This document shows, piece after piece, positions 2,903 through 15,210 of a stretch of DNA of 30,548 nt (position 1 is its first letter; the number at the start of each line of letters is the position of its first letter). Made by a program: the position numbers and the translations under genes. The DNA lies in the IMG/VR virus record IMGVR_UViG_3300045988_118519; one strand, 5' to 3'. The notes under the pieces were generated by a model that worked only from the letters and a program-made list of their open reading frames with translations, ran no database searches and was not told the DNA's origin. Source of the DNA: a virus. Taxonomy: Duplodnaviria; Heunggongvirae; Uroviricota; Caudoviricetes.

Positions 2903-3727
2903 TCAGGCGGTGAAAGTACCAATAAAGGTTTCTACTTTGCTGTCTTTGAATTTCTCAACAAGCAGATCACGAAATTCGTTAGCCATTTCTTCCTGCACTG
3001 CTTCCAGCTGAATAATGCGCAGAACCAGTACAGGACGATCGCCAGTGATAATGCTGAGGCGTAATTTAAATGGACGTTCTTTCAGACCTTCAAACGGAAC
3101 GCATTTAAATTCAAATGCCACTGGCATAATGTCTTTGGTCTTCGCTTCGACAGACTCCATCAGGGAGCGTTTGCCGCTGAAGTCATTATCTTCAAAATCA
3201 GCGGTCTGGTTTGCTTCAATCGTGATTTTACGGACAGCCGCAGCCGCTTTTGTTGCCTGAATAGCGTCACCATTAGCATCAAAGCCCACAAGGTAGTCGG
3301 CCCAGTCTTCAATCCATTCTGCCAGTGACTTCTGGGAATGACGCTCGCCGTTAACAGACAACAGAGCAGAGAACGGTGCTGTCTTTTTCAGTTTGAGAGT
3401 GGCAGTGTTATCTGCGTGACCTGGCTCATCAATAGTACCCAGGTTAAGCACACTGACGGCACGCATATTATCGGCATCGATAAAGCAGCGGGTGCCTTCA
3501 TCTGCAAGATCTTTAGAATAACGGGTAAAGTCATCGATGCTGGCAGTGGAAAGCGCACCACGGAAACGGAAGCGATTTAAATTAAATTTTTCCAGATCAT
3601 GAATGCGGAAATTCTCAGGCAATGCCACAGCATCGGCACCAATCTTACTGATAATTTCATTAACACCCTGAGCAGAAATAAGAGCATGGATTTGATTAAT
3701 TGCGGTTGCGTCTAAGTTCTGAGACAT
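2903..3727 (-). CDS. yfdQ: DUF2303 protein, YfdQ-like, 274 aa
   Basis: Length equals CPS-53 YfdQ (274 aa); synteny with yfdP/R/S-like genes. Confidence 0.65.
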
Positions 3728-3792
3728 AATAAGTCCTCACTATATAAAGATATTCAGTGATGAGATAAATAATCAGTTAATTAAGAACGATA

Positions 3793-4155
3793 TTAATGAC
3801 CTGCTGCGCGGAGTTTTCCGTCAGGTTCACCGGCAAGAGTCAGTAATTGTCCCTGGTCTTCCTGCAGAATAGTCAGGCGACCACCGCGATTGACATACAT
3901 CGGCGTTTCGGTGGTGTCTTCTTCAGAAATTTTCCCGCGGTTAGTCGGGCGAACATATGAGAGTTTGTGTTTGATTTTCACACGGTTCTCATCAAACGGT
4001 TCGATTTCCAGGTTGAGCGAGACCTTACCTTTGGTTTTCGTGTTCATCACACCGGAAGCGACTTCACTGAGAACAGCGCCGATTTTGGTTTCAAATACGC
4101 CGCCGTCCAGCTCCCCGATAAATGCCTGCACATCAGTACTGCGTTCGCTAGCCAT
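3793..4155 (-). CDS. yfdP: Hypothetical protein, YfdP-like, 120 aa
   Basis: ATG at 4155 with GAGGAG RBS; the 182-aa track ORF extension runs through hairpins and is rejected; length equals YfdP (120 aa). Confidence 0.55.
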   Translation of the reverse strand: MASERSTDVQAFIGELDGGVFETKIGAVLSEVASGVMNTKTKGKVSLNLEIEPFDENRVKIKHKLSYVRPTNRGKISEEDTTETPMYVNRGGRLTILQEDQGQLLTLAGEPDGKLRAAGH

Positions 4156-4295
4156 TTTGCTGCTCCTCATCATATCGACCCTGCAAGGTCGGTTGGTTTC
4201 TCCACAAAACAGAGAAGAACACCTGCGGTGACTGCCGCCCGGATGGATTGGGTTATGAGCCCGTCGTCCGGTGATGCTCTTCTCTGTTTTGTAAA

Positions 4296-4877: not shown

Positions 4878-5570
4878 TTAATTGTGTCGCTTAAGGGTTT
4901 GTGACTGACTGATTAAGACCTTTCCAAAGACCATAAACCGGTGTTCGTTTTCGCTGGTAATTCCCCATTCGCGGTAAATCTGATTATCAGAAATTACCAG
5001 CAGTTTATCAGGTATCATTTGCAGTCGTTTGACGTAAATTTTATCATCAAAACCAAATACATATATACCATCCCCATCAAACTGATTGATACTGATATCA
5101 ACGAAGATGAGATCTCCTGGCTCAATGGTTGGACACATACTGTCCCCACGAACGTTGATAACTTTAATGTGATTTGCTGGTCGTCCACCAAACATCGATA
5201 CAGCATTATCAGTTCTGTATTCAATGGCATGAATCACATCAATGACATCACCGCCCTGGATAAGGCCATTTCCCGCACTGGCACTGACATCCAGCATTTC
5301 AATACGGAATACATCCTTCACCTGCGCAACATCCTCACTAATACTGTTTTTACATACAGTATTACTTTTGAGGTCTGAGGTAAAGAGATCAGCAATATCA
5401 ACACCTAAGCTCCTGGCAATATTACTCAGGGCTTGTTCAGTGAATTGTTTCTGCTTACCTGTTTCGAGGCGCGAGATATTCGCCGCATCCACTCCTATTG
5501 CTTCAGCGAGATCGGCGATTTTCATGTTCTTCGCCTGGCGAAGTTGTCTGACTCGATTTCCTATGTTCAT
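4878..5570 (-). CDS. cI-like repressor (XRE HTH plus S24 LexA-like peptidase domain), 230 aa
   Basis: N-term RVRQLRQAKNMKIADLAEAIGVDAANISRLE HTH; Ala-Gly site in SASAGNG; GDSM Ser and VKRL Lys dyad; no SD upstream of ATG (possibly leaderless). Confidence 0.9.
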   Translation of the reverse strand: MNIGNRVRQLRQAKNMKIADLAEAIGVDAANISRLETGKQKQFTEQALSNIARSLGVDIADLFTSDLKSNTVCKNSISEDVAQVKDVFRIEMLDVSASAGNGLIQGGDVIDVIHAIEYRTDNAVSMFGGRPANHIKVINVRGDSMCPTIEPGDLIFVDISINQFDGDGIYVFGFDDKIYVKRLQMIPDKLLVISDNQIYREWGITSENEHRFMVFGKVLISQSQTLKRHN

Positions 5571-5590
5571 GCGTTTATTACATTTCTTTA

Positions 5591-5662
5591 TTGCGCGTTA
5601 AGCAAATCAACTTGCGCAAAATATTTGCGTGAAATAATATGCTCATCACGCAATATGTGGAG
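5591..5662. promoter_or_regulatory. OR region with candidate pR and divergent cI promoter
   Basis: TTGCGCGTTAAGCAA (5591-5605) matches the OL site pattern; palindrome CGCAAAATATTTGCG (5615-5629); -35 TTGCGC (5612-5617), 17-bp spacer, -10 TAATAT (5635-5640); GGAGG RBS before cro. Confidence 0.5.
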
Positions 5663-5667
5663 GTTAT

Positions 5668-5928
5668 ATGCAATCACCATTACGGAATGTGCGTAAGGCG
5701 CACGGATTTACTTTGCAGCATGTTGCTGCGGGCGTTCAGGTCAATCCAGCGACGCTGAGTCGTATTGAAAGACTGGAACAAATTCCATCTATCGATCTTG
5801 CAGAACGTCTGGCCAATTTTTTTAAGGGTGAAATCAGCGAAATGCAGATTCTTTATCCGGCACGTTTTCAATCTAGCCAAAACCAGAATGGGTTTAAACC
5901 ACAGGAACAGGAGGTAAGCCGTGGGTAA
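5668..5928 (+). CDS. Cro-like XRE-family HTH regulator, 86 aa
   Basis: VRKAHGFTLQHVAAGVQVNPATLSRIE HTH; divergent from the repressor gene. Confidence 0.8.
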   Translation: MQSPLRNVRKAHGFTLQHVAAGVQVNPATLSRIERLEQIPSIDLAERLANFFKGEISEMQILYPARFQSSQNQNGFKPQEQEVSRG

Positions 5929-6472
5929 GCATCATTGGAAAGTGGAAAAACAACCTGAGTGGTACGTGAAAGCTGTCAGAAAAACTATCGCGGCATTGCC
6001 TGGGGGTTACGCTGAAGCTGCTGACTGGCTGGATGTAACAGAGAACGCTTTATTCAACCGCCTTCGTGCAGATGGCGATCAGATTTTCCCGCTGGGATGG
6101 GCAATGGTTTTACAGCGCGCGGCTGGCACTCACTACATTGCGGATGCTGTCGCACAGTCTGCTGGTGGGGTGTTCGTATCGCTTCCTGAAATTGAGGAAG
6201 TAGAGAACGCCGATATAAACCAGCGCCTGCTGGAAGTCATCGAACAGATCGGGAATTACTCAAAGCAGATTCGTTCGGCAATCGAAGATGGGGTCGTGGA
6301 GCCACACGAGCAGACAGCAATTAATGATGAGTTGTATCTGTCAATTTCGAAGCTCCAGGAGCATGCAGCACTGGTCTACAAAATCTTCTGCGCTCCAGAA
6401 AAGAGTGACGCCCGCGAGTGTGCAGCTCCGGGCGTCGTGGCGTTTTGTGTCTGTGGAGAAACTAACGCATGA
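5921..6472 (+). CDS. CII-like phage regulatory protein (CP76-type), 183 aa
   Basis: GTG start with AGGAGG RBS at 6 nt; position after cro; family assignment from recall. Confidence 0.55.
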   Translation: MGKHHWKVEKQPEWYVKAVRKTIAALPGGYAEAADWLDVTENALFNRLRADGDQIFPLGWAMVLQRAAGTHYIADAVAQSAGGVFVSLPEIEEVENADINQRLLEVIEQIGNYSKQIRSAIEDGVVEPHEQTAINDELYLSISKLQEHAALVYKIFCAPEKSDARECAAPGVVAFCVCGETNA

Positions 6473-6882
6473 ACAGTTTAACGGCAAATAACCGTTTGTC
6501 GCAACAGCTGGTGGTCAGTGTCGCTGAACACCTGTTGTTACGGCATGAATGCAGATTACCAAATCACTTGGCTGTAAGTAACCACAGAGAACTTTACCTG
6601 ACTGTGGGGGGCGAGTTGTGCAGGAACTTAACCGCTGGTTTCGTGACGGAAGAGGGCTTTATGTCCATGTTATTCGTTGGGAGCCAGAAACACAGCGCGT
6701 TATCTATCTTCGCAAAGACTACCCGCATGAGTGCTTTAGTCCTTTGTGGAAATTCAGGCGTGATTTTGTTGAGTGTGAAGGACCACCAGCACATTGATTC
6801 TGCCATTCCGGGACGTTACACTGTTCAGGCACCTTATAAAGCGGGTGCCGGGCGTGGAAACTCGGAATTCACCAAAGCGCAC

Positions 6883-6905
6883 AACCGCGCTCTTGCGGTT
6901 TTTTT
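6883..6905 (+). terminator. Rho-independent terminator-like hairpin AACCGC-gctctt-GCGGTT plus TTTTTTT
   Basis: Read directly; lies inside the long frame that continues into Rha. Confidence 0.5.
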
Positions 6906-7074
6906 GTGTAATGAGCAGCATTACGCCCAAATTATGGTGGGGCGTGCAGGGCCAACTTCGGTTGGGCCGGGTTCTTTGGTGACCGGTATTTCCACCCCTG
7001 TACGTCTCACCACCAATAAGGTCGTGGAAAGCCTTGGTGGTGAGTTATTAAAAATCACCAAAGAGGCTGCCATC

Positions 7075-7620
7075 ATGGCTACGATCCCAACCCTCACTCA
7101 ACCTGAAATTGCCATCGTTGATGGTCAGGCTGTTACTTCATCCCTGGCTGTTGCCAACTTCTTCTCCAAACGTCATGACGATGTACTGAAAAAGATCCGC
7201 ACGCTTGAATGCTCTGCATCATTCACTTCCCGCAATTTTTCGGCGAGTGATTACACCGATTGCACAGGCCGCAAACTACCTTGCTATCAAATAACCCGCG
7301 ACGGCTTTGCGTTTCTTGCTATGGGTTTCACGGGTAAACGTGCTGCCCAGTTCAAAGAGGCATACATCAATGCCTTTAACCAGATGGAGAAACAGCTTTC
7401 AAATCCCTCTGTACTGAGCGACGTTGCACATAACGCCAGCGTTCTCTATTCCTACATTTCATCAATTCATCAGGTCTGGCTGCAGCAGCTTTATCCTATG
7501 TTGGCAAAAGCCGAATCTCCGCTGGCTGTTAGCTTGTATGACTATATTAATGATGCTTCGGCACTGGCCTGCCTCATAAATTTGTCGCTGAACCCTTCAG
7601 AGGTAAGGGGGCGCAAATGA
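7075..7620 (+). CDS. Rha-family phage regulatory protein, 181 aa as called (the frame is open from 6469)
   Basis: IVDGQAVTSSLAVANFFSKRHDDVLKKIRTL matches the Rha N-terminal domain; ATG at 7075 with AGAGG RBS. Confidence 0.7.
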   Translation: MATIPTLTQPEIAIVDGQAVTSSLAVANFFSKRHDDVLKKIRTLECSASFTSRNFSASDYTDCTGRKLPCYQITRDGFAFLAMGFTGKRAAQFKEAYINAFNQMEKQLSNPSVLSDVAHNASVLYSYISSIHQVWLQQLYPMLAKAESPLAVSLYDYINDASALACLINLSLNPSEVRGRK

Positions 7621-7841
7621 TCCGGAATATTTTCAAACGGTTTACCAATCAGACTTTCCGTTGTCCTCGTCCGGGTCAGTGGTACACCACACCTGCAGGG
7701 CATGTTCTACGTGTTAGCCTGGTTGACCGTGAATGTCAGAAGGTGATTTGTGAACCGCTGGGCCGTAGTTACCGCGTCAGTATGCCGCTTATAGCCTTTC
7801 GCTCCGGAAAAAACATGAAGCATCTCGGAGGTGCTGCATGA
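7617..7841 (+). CDS. Hypothetical protein, 74 aa
   Basis: ATGA start/stop overlap with both neighbours (translational coupling); GGGGG RBS. Confidence 0.5.
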   Translation: MIRNIFKRFTNQTFRCPRPGQWYTTPAGHVLRVSLVDRECQKVICEPLGRSYRVSMPLIAFRSGKNMKHLGGAA

Positions 7842-8656
7842 GTATGGAGCTGATGGTTAAAGCGATGAAAATTCGAGTGGGTAATCCATTGCGAAAACTG
7901 GTTCTGATCAAGCTGGCTGATAATGCCAGCGATCAGGGGGAGTGCTGGCCCAGCTACCAGCATATTGCTGACCAGTGCGAGATTAGCAAACGTTCTGTGA
8001 TGAATCATATTGCGGCCCTTTGTGAGTCCGGGCTGGTAAAAAAAGTCACCCGGAAAGGTGAAAAAGGTAACTCAAGTAATATCTATCTCCTTCATCTGGA
8101 TGGTGCAGGAGATTCACTAGGGGGTAGTGCAAATAATTCACTATCTGGTGCAGCAAATTCACCAGGTAGTGCAGGAGTTGCACCAGGGGGTAGTGCAGGA
8201 GATTCACCCAGAACCAGTCACTCTTTTGAACCAGTCAAAGAACCAGTCAATGAACCAATAGCTGTTGGTGCATCAGTTGATGAGTCCGTGCGAGTTCGTT
8301 CAAACCGACCGGAATACTCTCCGGAGTTTGAGCAGGCATGGCTGGTATATCCCAAACGTGCTGGTGGCAATTCAAAATCTGCAGCCTTCAAAGCCTGGAA
8401 AGCCCGTTTGAATGAGGGGGTAAACCCCGAAACCATGCTGGAAGGTGTGAAACGCTACGCGGGCTGGGTATCTGCGATGGGTAACAGCGGCACACAATTT
8501 GTGAAACAGGCTGTTACGTTCTTTGGTCCGGATCGTCATTTCGAAGAATCCTGGGAAGTTCCTGCGGTATCTGCAGCCAGACGCGAGGACCCGTACTTCA
8601 AAGCCAGTTACGACAACGTGGACTACAGCCAGATCCCGGCAGGATTCAGGGGGTGA
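7838..8656 (+). CDS. Phage replication initiator (O-like; N-terminal winged HTH), 272 aa
   Basis: N-term KLADNASDQGECWPSYQHIADQCEISKRSVMNHIAALCESGLV wHTH; internal iteron-like repeats; position after cII/Rha. Confidence 0.6.
   Translation: MSMELMVKAMKIRVGNPLRKLVLIKLADNASDQGECWPSYQHIADQCEISKRSVMNHIAALCESGLVKKVTRKGEKGNSSNIYLLHLDGAGDSLGGSANNSLSGAANSPGSAGVAPGGSAGDSPRTSHSFEPVKEPVNEPIAVGASVDESVRVRSNRPEYSPEFEQAWLVYPKRAGGNSKSAAFKAWKARLNEGVNPETMLEGVKRYAGWVSAMGNSGTQFVKQAVTFFGPDRHFEESWEVPAVSAARREDPYFKASYDNVDYSQIPAGFRG
8102..8260 (+). repeat. Iteron-like direct repeats (candidate replication origin) inside the initiator gene
   Basis: Five copies of about 20 bp with core GTGCAGGAGATTCAC starting near 8102, 8123, 8147, 8166, 8189; then three copies of GAACCAGTCA (8211-8250). 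Confidence 0.6.
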
Positions 8657-8658
8657 TC

Positions 8659-9147
8659 ATGAGTCTTTTGAATGAAGTTCAGAAATTCATTGAAGCCCAT
8701 CCGGGGTGTACTTCCGGAGACATTGCGGATGCTTTTGCAGGTTACTCACGGCAGCGCGTTCTGCAGTCAGCAAGCAAGTTACGTCAGAGTGGGCGTGTGG
8801 CTCACCGTTGTGAAGGAGATACACGCAGACATTTCCCGCGCCTGACTGAGAGAGCGCAGGAACCGGAACCACAACCAGTTCGAGAAACCAGACCTGTGCG
8901 CAATTTCTATGTCGGCACTAACGATCCACGGGTGATTTTGTGCCTGACCCGCCAGGCTGAAGAACTGGAGTCCAGGGGCTTATACCGTCGTGCTGCAACC
9001 GTGTGGATGGCGGCATTCCGTGAAAGCCACTCCCAGCCAGAACGAAACAATTTTCTGGCGCGTCGTGAGCGGTGCTTACGGAAAAGCAGCAAGCGCGCTG
9101 CATCGGGTGAAGAGTGGTATCTGTCAGGGAATTACGTGGGGGCTTAA
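8659..9147 (+). CDS. wHTH protein with ANR/PerC-like C-terminal region, 162 aa
   Basis: C-terminal LTRQAEELESRGLYRRAATVWMAAF resembles the ANR-family motif; family call is tentative. Confidence 0.45.
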   Translation: MSLLNEVQKFIEAHPGCTSGDIADAFAGYSRQRVLQSASKLRQSGRVAHRCEGDTRRHFPRLTERAQEPEPQPVRETRPVRNFYVGTNDPRVILCLTRQAEELESRGLYRRAATVWMAAFRESHSQPERNNFLARRERCLRKSSKRAASGEEWYLSGNYVGA

Positions 9148-9800
9148 TGAGTAATAAATATTGCCAGGCGCTGGTGGAGCTGCGGAACAAACCAGCCCAT
9201 GAACTGAAGGAAGTGGGCGATCAGTGGCGCACGCCGGACAACATTTTCTGGGGAATTAACACCCTGTTTGGCCCGTTTGTTCTGGATCTGTTTACTGACG
9301 GTGATAACGCCAAATGTGCCGCGTATTACACGGCGGAAGATAACGCGCTGGCGCATGACTGGTCAGAACGTCTTGCGGAGCTTAAAGGTGCTGCCTTTGG
9401 TAATCCCCCGTACAGCCGCGCCAGTCAGCATGAGGGGCAATACATCACCGGCATGCGTTACATCATGAAGCATGCCAGTGCCATGCGTGATAAAGGCGGG
9501 CGCTATGTTTTCCTGATCAAAGCTGCCACCAGCGAAGTGTGGTGGCCGGAAGATGCAGACCATATTGCTTTTATTCGCGGGCGTATTGGTTTTGAACTGC
9601 CAGCCTGGTTTATCCCGAAGGACGAGAAGCAGGTGCCGACAGGCGCTTTCTTCGCTGGTGCTATTGCTGTTTTCGACAAGACCTGGAAGGGACCGGCAAT
9701 CAGCTACATCGGGCGTGATGAACTTGAGGCATGTGGTGAGGCGTTTCTGGCGCAGGTTCGCCAGCAGGCGGAAAAACTGGTCAGGGAGATGGCGGCATGA
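9147..9800 (+). CDS. Phage Dam-like N6-adenine DNA methyltransferase, 217 aa
   Basis: Catalytic GNPPY motif; ATG overlaps upstream stop (TAATGA). Confidence 0.8.
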   Translation: MSNKYCQALVELRNKPAHELKEVGDQWRTPDNIFWGINTLFGPFVLDLFTDGDNAKCAAYYTAEDNALAHDWSERLAELKGAAFGNPPYSRASQHEGQYITGMRYIMKHASAMRDKGGRYVFLIKAATSEVWWPEDADHIAFIRGRIGFELPAWFIPKDEKQVPTGAFFAGAIAVFDKTWKGPAISYIGRDELEACGEAFLAQVRQQAEKLVREMAA

Positions 9801-11339: not shown

Positions 11340-12335
11340 GTGACCGTGAGAGCACTACTGACCCCTGAAATTGCCCCGCGTATGGGGATCGTATTGTTCA
11401 GGCCAGGTTCAGAGCTGATGCCCCTGTTTATGCAGGGGCGTGTCCTGCTGGAGCCTGAGCCGGAACGTTATTCATCTTTCGCCAGTGGTGCCGTTCCGGC
11501 GGCATCACAACCGCTGGCGGATGATCCTGCCGTTCGGGCCGTGTTCCGCAATGAGGCAGTGATCCGTCGTGCTGGTGGAGTGGAATGTCTTGAACGCTGG
11601 TTACTTCGTGAAAAAGGTTGCCAGTGGCCTCATTCCGACTGGCACAGCGAGAACATGACCACAATGCGACACACGCCGGGCGCAATCCGTCTGTGCTGGC
11701 ACTGCGATAACCAGCTGCGCGATCAGTTCACGGAACGGCTGGAATCAATGGCAACGGATAACTGTACCCGCTGGGTGTTGTCTGTTGTGCGTCGGGATCT
11801 CGGTTTTGATGACAGTCACGTTGTGACAATGCCGGAACTGTGCTGGTGGCTGATTCGTAATGACCTGGCGGATGCCTTACCGGAAAGTGCAGCCCGTAAG
11901 GCACTGAGATTACCGAAGCCTGTTGTGCCGTCTGTCACCCGGGAAAGTGACCTTGTGCCTTCGGTTCCTGCCACCAGCATCATCCAGGATAAAGCGAAAA
12001 AGGTGCTGGCGCTGAAAGTGGATCCAGAGTCGCCGGAGTCTTTTATGTTACGCCCAAAACGTCGCCGCTGGGTTAATGAAAAGTACACGCGCTGGGTTAA
12101 GACACAGCCGTGTGCATGTTGTGGAAAGCCTGCTGATGATCCCCACCACCTGATAGGCCATGGTCAGGGTGGAATGGGTACAAAAGCGCATGACCTCTTT
12201 GTGTTGCCTTTGTGCAGAAAGCATCACGACGAGCTGCATGCGGATACCGTGGCATTTGAAGAGAAGTATGGCTCCCAACTGGAGCTGATATTTCGTTTTA
12301 TCGATCGTGCGCTGGCAATTGGCGTGCTGGCCTGA
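11340..12335 (+). CDS. DUF968 protein (YdfU-like), 331 aa
   Basis: C-terminal Cys/His motif [41 protein letters not shown]; start codon uncertain. Confidence 0.55.
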
Positions 12336-12352
12336 TTTTGTGGAGAAAGTTG

Positions 12353-12718
12353 ATGCGTGATATTCAAATGGTTCTTGAACGTTGGGGGGCATGGGTGGCA
12401 AATAATCACGAGGATGTCACCTGGTCGTCTATTGCTGCAGGATTTAAAGGACTAATCCCTTCAAAAGTAAAATCCCGCCCGCAATGTTGTGACGATGACG
12501 CGATGATCATTTGTGGGTGCATGGCTCGCCTGAAAAAGAACAACAGCGATTTGCACGATTTATTAGTGGATTATTATGTAGGTGGTATGACGTTTATGGC
12601 GCTTGCCCGTAAACATGGGCGTTCTGATTGCTGGGTTGGGCGTTTATTGCAAAAGGCTGAAGGTGTAGTTGATGGCATGTTAATGATGTTAGAAATTGAG
12701 CTAGAGATGGATCGTTAG
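12353..12718 (+). CDS. Late-gene antiterminator Q-like protein (phage 82-type family), 121 aa
   Basis: ATG at 12353 with GGAGAAAG RBS; position just before the late region; Cys-rich centre; family from recall. Confidence 0.6.
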
Positions 12719-12760
12719 AAGACCTCTTATTGAGGGGGTAATTGAATCAGTTTAATGTGT

Positions 12761-12795
12761 GGGGAGTCGATTTATTCTCCCCATTTTATTTAATT
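12761..12795 (+). terminator. Hairpin GGGGAG-N10-CTCCCC followed by T-rich tract
   Basis: Read directly; T-tract is interrupted. Confidence 0.35.
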
Positions 12796-12802
12796 AGTTT
12801 AC

Positions 12803-13249
12803 TTAAGGTTTTAATTCATCAAGACGTTGTTGGATAGTGTTTTTGCTTGCGTTGTCTGTTATAGCCATTTGTTGTACTTGCCCCATTGCCATTTGAGTTT
12901 CCATCCACATATCGGCCCACACTTTTGTATCGTTATTAACTTGAGCGATAGTAAATCTGACTTTTGATACCGGGGTTGTTGAATAGGCATTTCCGATTAA
13001 CATTTGTCCAAAAACAGCAGAGCCGCCTTCCAGTTCTTTACCACATATAACACTGCTGTTATCCGCGTTGTAAATTATCAACCCTCTACTATTGCAGTAA
13101 TTCACAAGGGCATCTTTGACTTTATCTTTTGTCGTATTTTGATAAACCCCCTCAGGTTTTCCTGATTGAGTTTTCTTTATCAATGGTACGGAAGAAGTAC
13201 AACCTGAAATGATAGTTGCGCTAAGTAATAGTACAGTCATTTTATTCAT
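12803..13249 (-). CDS. Lipoprotein of unknown function, 148 aa (cargo gene)
   Basis: Signal peptide with lipobox MNKMTVLLLSATIISGC; opposite strand to all flanking phage genes; AT-rich. Confidence 0.7.
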   Translation of the reverse strand: MNKMTVLLLSATIISGCTSSVPLIKKTQSGKPEGVYQNTTKDKVKDALVNYCNSRGLIIYNADNSSVICGKELEGGSAVFGQMLIGNAYSTTPVSKVRFTIAQVNNDTKVWADMWMETQMAMGQVQQMAITDNASKNTIQQRLDELKP

Positions 13250-13314
13250 GTTTCTTATCCATTGCTAAGGGTATACCCACACAATTATTTTTATTGGAGA
13301 TGAATAATCAACCG

Positions 13315-13342
13315 TTTACAATCGTAAAAAATCAAATATGCT
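13315..13342 (+). promoter_or_regulatory. Candidate late promoter pR'
   Basis: -35 TTTACA (13315-13320), 16-bp spacer, -10 TATGCT (13337-13342). Confidence 0.4.
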
Positions 13343-13371
13343 GTTAAGAGTGGTTACTTCGCCACACAACT

Positions 13372-13398
13372 TAAACCCGCCGCTGAGCGGTTTTTTTT
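13372..13398 (+). terminator. Candidate tR' terminator (Q target), giving a short 6S-like RNA of about 50 nt
   Basis: Hairpin AAACCCGC-CGCUGAGCGG followed by UUUUUUUU (13391-13398). Confidence 0.5.
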
Positions 13399-13496
13399 GT
13401 ACCTGTAAACTTGGTGCAGTACAGTAAACACGCTGGTGGTCGTGAATACTGACTTTTTATCTTGCTGGCTTTTTAGACAAGAGTTATTGGTATGTC

Positions 13497-13724
13497 ATGT
13501 TAACCAGAAGGGAAAAAGACATGCTAAAACAGCAAGATATGACAGAAACCGCCGCCGCAGTCCTTCATTTCTTACCTGCTGACAAGTGGGTAACGCCACG
13601 CATGATGACGAGAACTACCGGAGTAAGCGAAGCCCGGTGCCAGTTAATACTGACTCAGTTAGTTCTGGCGGGTCTGGCGAAGGATAACGGCGGGTACGGG
13701 AATAAATTCAGACGCTGCCAGTAA
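13497..13724 (+). CDS. Small wHTH-like protein of unknown function, 75 aa (start may be 13521)
   Basis: ORF just downstream of the tR' candidate; wHTH-like stretch WVTPRMMTRTTGVSEARCQLILTQLVLAGLA. Confidence 0.45.
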   Translation: MLTRREKDMLKQQDMTETAAAVLHFLPADKWVTPRMMTRTTGVSEARCQLILTQLVLAGLAKDNGGYGNKFRRCQ

Positions 13725-13874
13725 TGGCGGTTTCCTGCTGTGAAAATGGGCGGCTGGTGGGTGTTGGTAGCACCTGCCAGCCATTCGCTCATGCTTACTG
13801 GTCACAAGCGAACCACGGCCCACTGCTTTAGCGCAAAAGCAGAGTGAGCCTACCAGAGTTACGCTTACTGATCC

Positions 13875-14927
13875 ATGAAAAATACTGTAAAAATAAACAG
13901 TGTTGATTTAATCAACGCTGATTGCCTGCATTTTATTCAGTCCCTGCCTGATGATTCCATTGACCTGATTGTTACCGATCCGCCGTACTTCAAGGTGAAA
14001 CCCAACGGCTGGGACAATCAGTGGAAAGGGGACGAAGATTACCTTAAGTGGCTGGACCACTGTCTGGCCCAGTTCTGGCGGGTGTTAAAACCTGCCGGAA
14101 GCCTTTACCTGTTCTGTGGGCATCGCCTGGCATCTGATATTGAGATCATGATGCGTGAACGTTTCAACGTGCTTAACCATATCATCTGGGCGAAGCCGTC
14201 CGGACGTTGGAATGGGTGTAATAAAGAAAGTCTGCGTGCATATTTTCCTGCCACAGAGCGCGTTCTGTTTGCTGAACATTACCAGGGGCCATATCGCGGC
14301 AAAAGTGACGGCTATGCGGCAAAAGAAAGGGAACTCAAACAGCACATAATGGCACCGCTGATTTCGTATTTCAGGGATGCTCGTGCCGAACTGGGTATAA
14401 CGGCAAAACAAATTGCCGAAGCCACAGGTAAGAAAAATATGGTTTCCCACTGGTTTGGTGCCAGTCAGTGGCAGTTGCCGAATGAGGCTGACTACCGGAA
14501 GTTACAGGCACTGTTTTCCCGTATAGCGGCAGAGAAGTTTCAGGAACAACAACTGGAACAACCACACCACCAGCTGGTGGCATCTTATGATTCACTGAAT
14601 CGCAAATATTCTGAATTGCTGGATGAGTTTAAATCTCTCCGGCGCTATTTCTCCGTATCAGTCTCCGTGCCTTATACCGATGTCTGGATGCATAAACCCG
14701 TTCAGTTCTACCCGGGGAAACATCCGTGTGAGAAACCGGCGGATATGCTCAGGCAAATAATCAATGCCAGTAGTCGACCAGGTGATCTGGTTGCTGATTT
14801 TTTTATGGGATCCGGTTCCACAATAAAAGCAGCAATGGCGCTGGGGCGTCGGGCCTTAGGTGTTGAGCTTGAGTCAGAGCGGTTTAACCAGACAGTGAAA
14901 GAGATAAACGAGCTGGTGGGGAAATAA
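13875..14927 (+). CDS. Beta-class DNA methyltransferase (N6-adenine or N4-cytosine), 350 aa
   Basis: Motif IV TDPPYF near N-terminus and motif [10 protein letters not shown] near C-terminus (beta-class order) with a long central insert. Confidence 0.85.
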
Positions 14928-14933
14928 TCTGGT

Positions 14934-14956
14934 GGCCACGTCAGGTGGCCTTTTTA
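14934..14956 (+). terminator. Rho-independent terminator after the methyltransferase gene
   Basis: GGCCAC-gtcag-GTGGCC hairpin followed by TTTTTATTT. Confidence 0.6.
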
Positions 14957-14994
14957 TTTCCATTACACAGCACCCGCATCTGCGAGGTGGGGTT

Positions 14995-15210
14995 ATGAAA
15001 TCCATGGATAAGTTAACAACGGGTGTCGCCTATGGCACCTCAGCAGGTAGTGCCGGGTACTGGTTTTTACAGTTGCTCGATAAAGTCACGCCCTCACAGT
15101 GGGCGGCAATAGGTGTGCTGGGTAGTCTGGTATTTGGCTTGCTGACGTATCTGACAAACCTTTATTTCAAGATTAAAGAAGACAAGCGTAAGGCTGCACG
15201 GGGAGAGTAA
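14995..15210 (+). CDS. S21-type pinholin with dual-start motif, 71 aa
   Basis: [31 protein letters not shown]...[22 protein letters not shown] closely matches phage 21 S21 as I recall it, including MKSM dual start. Confidence 0.85.

What the first reader, a model, noticed from the sequence alone, without database searches (positions are those of the whole stretch)
12720..13300. AT-rich, opposite-strand lipoprotein cargo gene between Q and the late promoter
A 148-aa lipoprotein (lipobox ISGC) sits on the minus strand between the Q-like gene and the candidate pR'. Every flanking phage gene runs rightward and the region is visibly AT-rich, as expected for a horizontally acquired gene expressed from the prophage. 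I do not recognise the mature domain. Phage lipoproteins in such positions are typically exclusion, serum-resistance or other lysogenic-conversion factors (for example Bor, Cor, Llp).
Basis: partly seen in the sequence, partly recalled or inferred. Interest (0 to 1): 0.6.

Follow-up and report, generated by a model that had tools for sequence, protein, structure and literature searches.

The report
Phage moron encoding outer-membrane lipoprotein
A small foreign-looking gene wedged backwards between a prophage's late-gene activator (Q) and its late promoter encodes an uncharacterised outer-membrane lipoprotein that travels among temperate phages, usually beside their tail-tip genes, and most likely alters the cell envelope to block other phages; that role is untested.

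Summary
Window 12803-13249 (-) is an intact 148-aa gene with a type II signal peptide and lipobox (LLLSATIISG|C17, +2 Thr, so outer-membrane sorting is expected). GC is 0.38 and GC3 0.32, against 0.51 for the window. It lies in a ~600-bp cassette between a Q21-family antiterminator and a pR'-tR' block that directly abuts Q in phage H-19B. In related phages the same slot holds, also backwards, the porin gene nmpC/ompD. The protein is RefSeq WP_001038608 / PHROG 3152 (function unknown), with no Pfam, NCBIfam or PADLOC match. The confident AlphaFold model is a generic helix-grip/KA1/BamC-like domain, unlike Llp, Rtp45, Bor or Cor. Homologs at 31-72% identity across Gammaproteobacteria (plus one Sphingosinicella copy) are phage-borne morons: lower GC than their flanks and usually their own terminator. 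Of 25 divergent viral-contig copies, 23 sit inside the tail-tip module (TMP-M-L-K-I-J) at five or more insertion points. The E. coli allele is intact in 48/48 copies (dN/dS ~0.3) and occurs in ~185/5426 complete genomes. More distant relatives are chromosomal lipoproteins, some fused to PDZ, TPR or SHOCT. Best reading: a lysogen-expressed envelope factor, most likely superinfection exclusion (~0.4). It is a real but fairly ordinary moron of unknown function.

The parts
12338..12718 (+). Q antiterminator gene (Q21 family), left border of the cargo slot
   Evidence: PF06530 2.1e-51 over 118/118 profile positions and phrog_79. PF06530 is the Q21 family (PMC9388147). This allele plus its spacer is found at >=99% identity in 169 E. 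coli records, close to the ~185 genomes that carry the lipoprotein gene.
12719..13313 (.). Cargo cassette (moron) inserted between Q and pR'
   Evidence: Similarity to mEp332 and H-19B stops at the end of Q and resumes at ~13314. GC is 0.37-0.40. The same slot holds nmpC/ompD on the opposite strand in mEp332 and PhiR49_1_star.
12761..12792 (+). Hairpin GGGGAG-N10-CTCCCC with a T-rich tail on the + strand, lying between the convergent Q and lipoprotein genes
   Evidence: Terminator-like site; folds at -15.8 kcal/mol within the 3' flank. The T-run is on the Q strand. On the lipoprotein strand the tail is ACACATTAAAC, so it is a poor intrinsic terminator for the lipoprotein transcript.
12803..13249 (-). 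Lipoprotein CDS, 148 aa plus stop; mature protein is residues 17-148 (12806-13201)
   Evidence: phrog_3152 1.3e-104 over 148/148 positions. AlphaFold2 pLDDT 85.8, pTM 0.76, fold beta-alpha-beta-beta-alpha-beta-beta-beta-alpha.
13199..13249 (-). Signal peptide (residues 1-16) and lipobox Cys17 (codon 13199-13201)
   Evidence: MNKMTVLLLSATIISG|C. Cys17 is invariant in A1 and A2. A lipobox is present in 115/144 family representatives and the +2 residue is never Asp.
13284..13311 (-). Candidate sigma-70 promoter of the lipoprotein gene (TTGATT-16-AATAAT)
   Evidence: 9/12 consensus match; the -10 ends 34 nt upstream of the ATG. This is consensus only and is not verified. Its -35 lies 3 bp from the -35 of pR', back to back.
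13314..13398 (+). Late promoter pR' (-35 13315-13320, -10 13337-13342), initial transcribed region, and tR'-like hairpin plus T8 run (13377-13398); right border of the slot
   Evidence: Promoter and terminator scan. Nearly identical in mEp332 upstream of the holin. About 80% identical to the H-19B sequence that starts 14 nt before the Q stop codon.

Best explanation
The feature is a classical phage moron: a self-contained, low-GC cassette carrying one gene for a lipoprotein. [quoted passage not shown] There it presents a ~130-residue helix-grip domain on a ~15-residue tether to the periplasm. In this E. coli lineage the cassette sits between Q and pR', pointing away from pR'. Late transcription therefore never reads it, and it must use its own promoter, presumably in the lysogen. 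I propose that the protein acts at the envelope to stop incoming siphophages (superinfection exclusion). It could do this by binding the periplasmic face of an outer-membrane component used for adsorption or penetration, or by intercepting the ejected tail-tip/tape-measure complex. In phages where it lies within the late tail operon, it could also keep progeny from being wasted on lysing cells. Shown here: gene, lipobox, moron anatomy, phage-borne distribution, tail-tip linkage, purifying selection. Inferred: OM localisation, expression in lysogens, and the exclusion function with its target.
For: (1) Lipoprotein signal with an invariant Cys and non-Asp +2 across the family. (2) Moron anatomy: gene GC is below flank GC in 11 of 13 loci compared and above it in one (L028). 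The gap is about 8-16 points in ten of them, e.g. .378/.511.405/.560.422/.582. A canonical intrinsic terminator lies directly after the gene in 8 homolog loci, even inside tail operons. This fits the published definition of a moron (PMC3594210). (3) Every relative at 31-72% identity whose context I could read is in a prophage or viral contig. (4) 23 of 25 divergent IMG/VR copies lie inside the TMP-M-L-K-I-J tail-tip module, co-oriented, at five or more insertion points: before TMP, TMP|M, M|L, K|I and TMP..J. The same holds in Salmonella, Citrobacter, Morganella, Proteus, Photorhabdus and Haemophilus genomes. Known entry-blocking genes show the same linkage to tail or receptor-binding genes. 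HK97 gp15 lies next to the TMP gene (PMC3594210). Llp, Cor and Rtp45 are OM lipoproteins that block receptors, Llp and Rtp45 from the periplasmic side; that their genes lie beside receptor-binding genes is from my own knowledge. (5) The E. coli slot otherwise carries a backwards-facing OM porin gene. NmpC in the LF82 prophage Perceval is expressed 10-fold above prophage background in lysogens (PMC9928086); I assume, but did not check, that it occupies the equivalent slot. (6) Selection: 48/48 copies intact, dN/dS ~0.3; ~185/5426 genomes carry it.
Against: There is no experimental datum for this protein or any homolog. It shows no sequence or fold similarity to Llp, Rtp45, Cor, Bor or any PADLOC model. 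It is about twice the size of the ~6-kDa Llp/Rtp45-type proteins. Carrier phages do not share one receptor-binding domain: PhiR40_1 and PhiR55_1 have the identical lipoprotein but J C-termini only 81% identical, and the Salmonella carrier has an HK97/T1-type J end. A receptor-specific mask cognate to J is therefore not supported. In E. coli the gene is ~20 kb from the tail genes. More distant relatives are ordinary chromosomal lipoproteins, so the fold has a cellular role that phages may simply reuse. The promoter is only a consensus match. The IMG/VR contigs are not phylogenetically independent.
Confidence: 0.4

Rival explanations
1. Host-fitness or virulence conversion factor unrelated to phages: an OM lipoprotein that raises serum or complement resistance, adhesion or stress tolerance of the lysogen, as lambda Bor does.
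For: It has prophage moron architecture and presumed lysogenic expression. Carriers include human and animal E. coli isolates. Bor is an OM lipoprotein moron (PMC3594210).
Against: There is no Lambda_Bor or other Pfam match. The family occurs in phages of hosts with very different lifestyles: Halomonas, Sphingosinicella, Photorhabdus, Xenorhabdus, Haemophilus and Proteus. This reading does not explain why 23/25 divergent copies sit within tail-tip modules.
Confidence: 0.2
2. Modulator of a host envelope machine or a protective immunity protein: the helix-grip domain binds a conserved periplasmic or OM partner (for example BAM, Lpt or Tol-Pal) or a lipid. This would alter OM biogenesis or permeability, or protect against colicins or contact-dependent effectors, with any phage effect secondary.
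Against: Fold matches are weak and generic (identity <=12%, Foldseek E>1e-3). Tail-module linkage is not predicted by this reading. No partner is identified.
Confidence: 0.2
3. Lytic-cycle accessory protein needed by the phage itself, for example for lysis, release or tail function, rather than a lysogenic-conversion gene.
For: In most lineages the gene is co-oriented inside the late tail operon and would be transcribed by Q-modified polymerase. In the window it lies close to the lysis cassette.
Against: It is absent from most related phages: only 2 of 50,697 phage records carry it, and close relatives with the same backbone lack it. It has its own terminator and a deviant GC. In E. coli it is antisense and upstream of pR', so late transcription cannot express it. 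Export and lipidation are incompatible with cytoplasmic tail assembly.
Confidence: 0.1
4. The UniRef name 'Type IV secretion system putative lipoprotein VirB7' on one homolog is correct.
For: The UniRef100 name of the Xenorhabdus homolog P0012. A TrwH (VirB7) chain appears at E=0.18 in the profile-versus-PDB search.
Against: That match covers only residues 1-25, which is the signal peptide and lipobox. No T4SS genes lie nearby in any locus; all contexts are phage. VirB7/TrwH is a ~47-residue peptide, not a 130-residue helix-grip domain. The name looks like an automatic lipobox-rule annotation (my own knowledge).
Confidence: 0.01

Closest known systems
nmpC/ompD porin cargo between Q (quuD-type) and the late promoter in DLP12-like lambdoid phages (mEp332, PhiR49_1)
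   Same: Same genomic slot, same opposite-strand orientation, same Q21-family Q and homologous pR'-tR' block. Both are AT-rich foreign genes for outer-membrane proteins. NmpC in the LF82 prophage Perceval is expressed in lysogens (PMC9928086).
   Different: The cargo is a ~360-380-aa beta-barrel porin, not a 148-aa lipoprotein. There is no sequence relationship.
HK97 gp15, the founding 'moron' and a superinfection-exclusion protein
   Same: A moron with its own expression signals inserted in the tail operon next to the tape-measure gene. It is envelope-located, and its specificity is determined by the incoming phage's tail region. It has non-phage cellular relatives (YebO), as this family has chromosomal relatives (PMC3594210). 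One homolog (L097) lies just upstream of the TMP gene.
   Different: gp15 is a small inner-membrane protein, not an OM lipoprotein, and is unrelated in sequence. In the window the gene is at Q, not in the tail operon.
T5 Llp, Rtp Rtp45 and Cor (phi80/N15/HK022): phage OM lipoproteins that block receptors
   Same: All are phage-encoded lipoproteins. Llp and Rtp45 are anchored in the OM facing the periplasm, and Cor inactivates FhuA. This is the closest mechanistic model. That their genes sit beside receptor-binding or tail genes is from my own knowledge.
   Different: Rtp45 is ~6 kDa and Llp is described as small, whereas this mature protein is ~14 kDa with a helix-grip fold. No sequence, profile or fold match was found. 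Carrier phages have heterogeneous J receptor-binding ends.
Lambda Bor (serum-resistance OM lipoprotein)
   Same: An OM lipoprotein moron (PMC3594210). Its opposite-strand position near the lysis genes of lambdoid prophages is from my own knowledge.
   Different: No Lambda_Bor Pfam match. The position and the fold family differ.
BamC helix-grip domains, Flpp3 (DUF3568), DUF4468 and KA1 domains
   Different: Identity is <=12%, no Foldseek hit is below E=1e-3, and no Pfam model of these families matches. The resemblance is of fold class only.

Membership tests
Bacterial lipoprotein (SPase II substrate), outer-membrane sorted | N-terminal signal peptide ending in a lipobox [LVI][ASTVI][GAS]C | tested here: met
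   MNKMTVLLLSATIISG|C17. Cys17 is invariant in 20- and 58-sequence alignments, and a lipobox is present in 115/144 representatives.
Bacterial lipoprotein (SPase II substrate), outer-membrane sorted | No Asp at +2 (no Lol-avoidance signal), hence OM targeting in Enterobacterales | tested here: met
   +2 is Thr here. Across the family it is A/V/S/T/M/G/Q/L/I and never D. The rule itself is established knowledge and localisation was not measured.
Bacterial lipoprotein (SPase II substrate), outer-membrane sorted | Actual lipidation, globomycin sensitivity and OM fractionation | not testable with these tools
   Requires experiment.
Phage moron (Juhala/Hendrix definition) | Extra gene present in some but absent from closely related phage genomes at the same position | tested here: met
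   H-19B has Q directly followed by pR', and mEp332/PhiR49_1 have a porin there instead. Only 2 phage records carry the gene.
Phage moron (Juhala/Hendrix definition) | Base composition different from its surroundings | tested here: met
   GC 0.378 and GC3 0.322 against a window GC of 0.510. Gene GC is below flank GC in 11 of 13 loci compared and above it in one, L028.
Phage moron (Juhala/Hendrix definition) | Own terminator | tested here: inconclusive
   There is a canonical terminator after the gene in 8 homolog loci. In the window the only hairpin (12761-12782) has its T-run on the opposite (Q) strand.
Phage moron (Juhala/Hendrix definition) | Own promoter active in the repressed prophage | tested here: inconclusive
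   9/12 sigma-70 match at 13311..13284. The scan found 7 promoter-like sites against 3.2 +/- 1.7 expected in the region. There are no expression data.
Llp / Rtp45 / Cor-type superinfection-exclusion lipoproteins | Sequence or structural homology to Llp, Rtp45 or Cor | tested here: not met
Llp / Rtp45 / Cor-type superinfection-exclusion lipoproteins | Blocks adsorption or entry of phages that use a defined OM receptor | not testable with these tools
   Needs plating, adsorption and injection assays.
Lambda Bor family | Match to Pfam Lambda_Bor | tested here: not met
   There is no Pfam hit at E<=0.1 other than two sub-threshold chance matches, SapB_1 and SUR7.
VirB7/TrwH T4SS lipoprotein (UniRef name of one homolog) | Homology beyond the lipobox, and T4SS gene neighbourhood | tested here: not met
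   The TrwH match at E=0.18 covers residues 1-25 only. All contexts are phage, with no T4SS genes.
PHROG 3152 (function unknown) | Full-length profile match | tested here: met
   E=1.3e-104, residues 1-148 on profile positions 1-148 of 148.
Known anti-phage defence systems (PADLOC-DB 2.0) | Match to any PADLOC model | tested here: not met
   0 families at E<=0.01.

The most novel reading that the evidence does not exclude
This would be the founding example of a large, unnamed family (823 representative clusters; no Pfam model) of helix-grip periplasmic lipoproteins. Temperate siphophages across Proteobacteria would have captured them from cellular envelope lipoproteins and would carry them next to their tail-tip genes as a new, receptor-independent type of superinfection exclusion. 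In this reading an outer-membrane-anchored protein intercepts the tape-measure/tail-tip complex, or a conserved OM machine it needs, from the periplasmic side. That mechanism would be distinct from the small receptor-jamming lipoproteins Llp, Cor and Rtp45 and from the inner-membrane protein gp15.
Probability: 0.2. Interest if true: 0.7.

Novelty: new member of a known kind. Interest (0 to 1): 0.4.

Why it matters
Prophage morons for envelope proteins shape which phages can infect a strain, and sometimes how the strain behaves in a host. About 3% of complete E. coli genomes carry this gene, and relatives occur in prophages of Salmonella, Citrobacter, Morganella, Proteus, Photorhabdus, Haemophilus and Halomonas. 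Yet the family has no name, no Pfam model and no assigned function. Its repeated insertion next to tail-tip genes gives a concrete, cheap hypothesis to test: expressing it should make cells resistant to particular siphophages. If that holds, it would add a structurally new class to the few known Gram-negative exclusion lipoproteins. It would also matter for predicting phage host range and for phage therapy. If it does not hold, the gene remains a well-delimited example of cargo exchange at the Q-pR' hotspot.

Tried and rejected
(1) Pfam, NCBIfam and PADLOC on the protein, and Pfam on 58 diverse relatives, matched nothing except the lipoprotein signal model LPAM_1.
(2) PDB by sequence and by profile returned only signal-peptide-level hits.
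(4) Rfam on 12000-15200 found no RNA family.
(5) Receptor-linkage test: J C-termini of carrier phages are not of one type, so 'cognate mask for the J receptor' was dropped as the specific mechanism.
(6) The VirB7 name was rejected.
(7) An apparent conserved 'ATGGA'/mini-uORF upstream of the start, seen in a few homologs, was not general.
(8) Upstream promoter conservation: the sequences are not alignable across the family and only consensus-level matches exist.
(9) Scans for distant members failed. Alignments A2 and A6 were too divergent for pattern scans, and single distant proteins gave no IMG/VR hits. Whether members below ~30% identity are phage-borne is therefore known for only a few. Two (P0101, P0225) are in ordinary chromosomal neighbourhoods and one (P0117) is in an accessory-gene neighbourhood.
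(10) Literature searches for the accession, the PHROG number and prophage lipoproteins found no work on this family. The preprint that uses PhiR40.1 and PhiR55.1 does not mention the gene.

Full report
**Observation**

The window contains, exactly as described, a 148-codon ORF on the minus strand at 12803..13249, starting MNKMTVLLLSATIISGCTSS. RefSeq (WP_001038608.1, E. coli SCU-484) and GenBank (phage PhiR40_1) annotate the same ORF as 'hypothetical protein'. The N-terminus is a textbook type II signal peptide: a Lys-containing n-region, an 11-residue hydrophobic core, and the lipobox I-S-G-C.

Cys17 is invariant in alignments of 20 close and 58 diverse homologs. Among 144 family representatives, 115 have a lipobox, and the +2 residue is never Asp. 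By the established Lol-sorting rule this predicts outer-membrane anchoring.

The region is AT-rich. GC is 0.37-0.40 across 12600-13600, against 0.49-0.585 on either side. Gene GC is 0.378 and GC3 0.322, against GC3 0.44-0.56 for six neighbouring genes.

**The slot**

The gene immediately to the left (12338..12718, +) is a Q antiterminator of the Q21 family (PF06530, 2e-51). To the right lie a sigma-70-like promoter (TTTACA 13315-13320, 16 nt, TATGCT 13337-13342) and a short hairpin with a T8 run (13377-13398).

This 85-bp block is nearly identical in phage mEp332, just upstream of its holin. It is ~80% identical to the H-19B sequence that begins 14 nt before the Q stop codon and continues toward stx1.

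So the ancestral layout is Q directly followed by pR'-tR', and here ~600 bp (12719-13313) have been inserted between them.

In mEp332 and PhiR49_1_star the same slot, also on the opposite strand, carries the porin gene nmpC/ompD. The RefSeq name quuD on the related Q alleles points to the DLP12 layout. In the LF82 prophage Perceval, NmpC is expressed 10-fold above local prophage background in lysogens (PMC9928086).

A 9/12 promoter match for the lipoprotein gene (TTGATT-16-AATAAT, 13311..13284, minus) lies back to back with pR'. It is only a consensus match.

The hairpin between the convergent Q and lipoprotein genes (12761-12782) has its T-run on the Q strand.

**What the protein is**

It matches PHROG 3152 (function unknown) end to end (1e-104). 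It matches nothing in Pfam, NCBIfam or PADLOC, and it has no relative in the PDB by sequence or profile beyond signal-peptide matches.

An AlphaFold2 model built on 20 homologs is confident (pLDDT 85.8, pTM 0.76). After a ~15-residue tether it shows a compact beta-alpha-beta-beta-alpha-beta-beta-beta-alpha domain.

Besides Cys17, C69 is invariant and C52 nearly so, and both are nearly invariant across the 58 diverse sequences. They may form a periplasmic disulfide (inference). The motifs SGKPEG, GNAYSTTP and KVWADMWxETQMAMGQ are strongly conserved.

**Distribution**

In E. coli the whole cassette is present in ~185 of 5426 complete genomes, and in only two deposited phages, PhiR40_1 and PhiR55_1.

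- All 48 full-length IMG/VR copies of the E. coli type are intact.
- There are 15 alleles, with 10 synonymous-only and 9 mostly conservative replacement polymorphic codons. That gives a rough dN/dS of ~0.3.
- Of the 51 E. coli-type loci, 50 show Q convergent with the gene: 49 at 87-92 bp and one at 1898 bp. The remaining contig ends before Q.
- The late-region genes on the other side vary.
- This Q allele is found at >=99% identity in 169 records, so Q allele and cargo travel together.

A word-indexed search of 5.8 billion proteins finds only 31 clusters, all in Enterobacterales. An exhaustive profile search finds far more: 823 representative clusters at E<=1e-3 and 408 at E<=1e-10.

**Context of relatives: the main new result**

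Every homolog at 31-72% identity whose neighbourhood could be read is in a phage context, but rarely near Q.

- **K|X|I-J:** Salmonella and Morganella.
- **TMP|X|M:** Citrobacter and related contigs.
- **TMP..X..M-L-K:** Haemophilus.
- **Downstream of TMP:** Proteus and Photorhabdus.
- **Early region:** Phytobacter.
- **P1-like element:** Enterobacter.
- **Next to terminase or TMP genes:** Halomonas and Sphingosinicella.

A systematic classification of 25 divergent IMG/VR copies puts 23 inside the TMP-M-L-K-I-J module, co-oriented with it, at five or more insertion points: before TMP, TMP|M, M|L, K|I and TMP..J.

In 11 of the 13 loci compared the gene's GC is below that of its flanks, in ten of them by about 8-16 points. 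The exception is L028, where it is higher. In 8 loci a canonical intrinsic terminator follows the gene directly, even in the middle of a tail operon. This is the textbook anatomy of a moron (PMC3594210).

Much more distant relatives are different. A PDZ-fused one lies beside pst/phoU, and a Hyphomonadaceae one lies near rnpA/yidC, both ordinary chromosomal settings. A third lies among accessory genes. Other relatives carry TPR/BamD-like or SHOCT extensions. The phage clade therefore looks like a captured cellular envelope-lipoprotein domain, as HK97 gp15 was captured from YebO.

**Mechanism**

What is shown: the gene encodes an exported, lipobox-bearing protein; it is mobile phage cargo under purifying selection; and its relatives are preferentially linked to tail-tip genes.

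What I infer is an OM-anchored, periplasm-facing protein made in the lysogen that interferes with entry of other siphophages. The precedents are close.

- The first moron ever described, HK97 gene 15, lies next to the TMP gene and blocks DNA entry in a tail-dependent manner.
- Llp and Rtp45 are phage OM lipoproteins that jam FhuA and LptDE from the periplasmic side, and Cor inactivates FhuA.
- The neighbouring cargo type in this very slot is an OM porin.

Against a simple receptor mask, carrier phages have different J receptor-binding ends, and the protein resembles none of the known exclusion proteins. I therefore put the exclusion reading at ~0.4 and leave the target open: an OM component, or the incoming tail-tip/TMP complex.

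The rivals are as follows.

- A Bor-like host-fitness factor (0.2). This is weakened by the ecological breadth of the hosts and by the tail linkage.
- A modulator of an envelope machine, or an immunity protein (0.2). This is suggested by the BamC-like fold class and the PDZ/TPR fusions.
- A lytic-cycle accessory protein (0.1). This is contradicted by the gene's sporadic presence and by its antisense position upstream of pR' in E. coli.
- The automatic 'VirB7' name, which is rejected.

**Verdict**

It is a new, unnamed family within a well-known kind of element, the phage moron for an envelope protein, so a specialist would not be surprised by its existence.

The tail-tip linkage across genera and the fold unrelated to known exclusion lipoproteins make it a reasonable candidate for a simple plating experiment. 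Interest is 0.4.

Noticed in passing
window 13284-13342: The candidate lipoprotein promoter (minus strand, -35 at 13311-13306) and pR' (plus strand, -35 at 13315-13320) are back to back, with only 3 bp between their -35 hexamers. Occupancy of one could influence the other, or Q loading.
   Followed up: partly
window 13497-13724 and 13875-14927: Between pR'-tR' and the holin lie a 75-aa ORF (phrog_331, unknown; weak MarR-like HTH hit) and a 350-aa N6/N4 DNA methyltransferase (PF01555; PADLOC MTase_II 3e-152). The methyltransferase looks like an orphan enzyme that would be expressed with the late genes. Some E. coli-type copies of the locus lack one or both (L039, L046, L054-L058, L061-L062).
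   Followed up: partly
L048 8675-9937 (IMG/VR contig 2778261122_000001): In one otherwise identical locus an extra 420-aa ORF with no Pfam or PADLOC match is inserted between Q and the lipoprotein gene, on Q's strand. It is a second cargo gene in the same slot.
   Followed up: partly
L029 (mEp332) 3089-4186; L111 (PhiR49_1_star) 956-2098: Related Q21-type phages carry an NmpC/OmpD porin gene on the opposite strand in the same Q-pR' slot. In mEp332 it is followed by a hairpin with A- and T-runs on both sides, which looks like a bidirectional terminator.
   Followed up: partly
L001 (PhiR40_1) 14361-14474, equivalent to window ~13338-13451: The GenBank record annotates a 37-aa 'hypothetical protein' that overlaps the pR'/tR' block. 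It is probably a spurious call on the short pR' leader transcript region.
   Followed up: no
window 14932-15210: The mechanical holin ORF starts at a GTG and is 92 aa long, whereas the records annotate a 71-aa holin starting at MKSMDKL. The M-K-S-M start resembles a lambda-S-like dual-start holin/antiholin motif.
   Followed up: no
L108-L110; proteins P0101, P0106, P0117, P0188, P0225: Distant relatives of the domain are lipoproteins encoded outside phages, and some are fused to PDZ, TPR/BamD-like (YfiO) or SHOCT modules. None of the 58 diverse stand-alone family members scanned matches a Pfam model, so this looks like an undescribed envelope domain family.
   Followed up: partly
protein P0031 (82 aa, from a 248-bp contig): A partial protein annotated as antiterminator Q (PF06530) also matches the lipoprotein at 98% identity over 28% of the query. 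Q and the lipoprotein gene are convergent and 84 bp apart, so this is probably an assembly or gene-calling artefact on a very short contig.
   Followed up: no
L027 (PhiR40_1) 5484-9182 compared with PhiR55_1: PhiR40_1 and PhiR55_1 share the identical lipoprotein, but their J C-terminal 256 aa are only 81% identical. Both are listed in a 2025 preprint among the phages against which the SNIPE defence gives only modest protection, which that text presents as evidence of ManYZ-independent defence (10.1101/2025.11.03.685801).
   Followed up: partly
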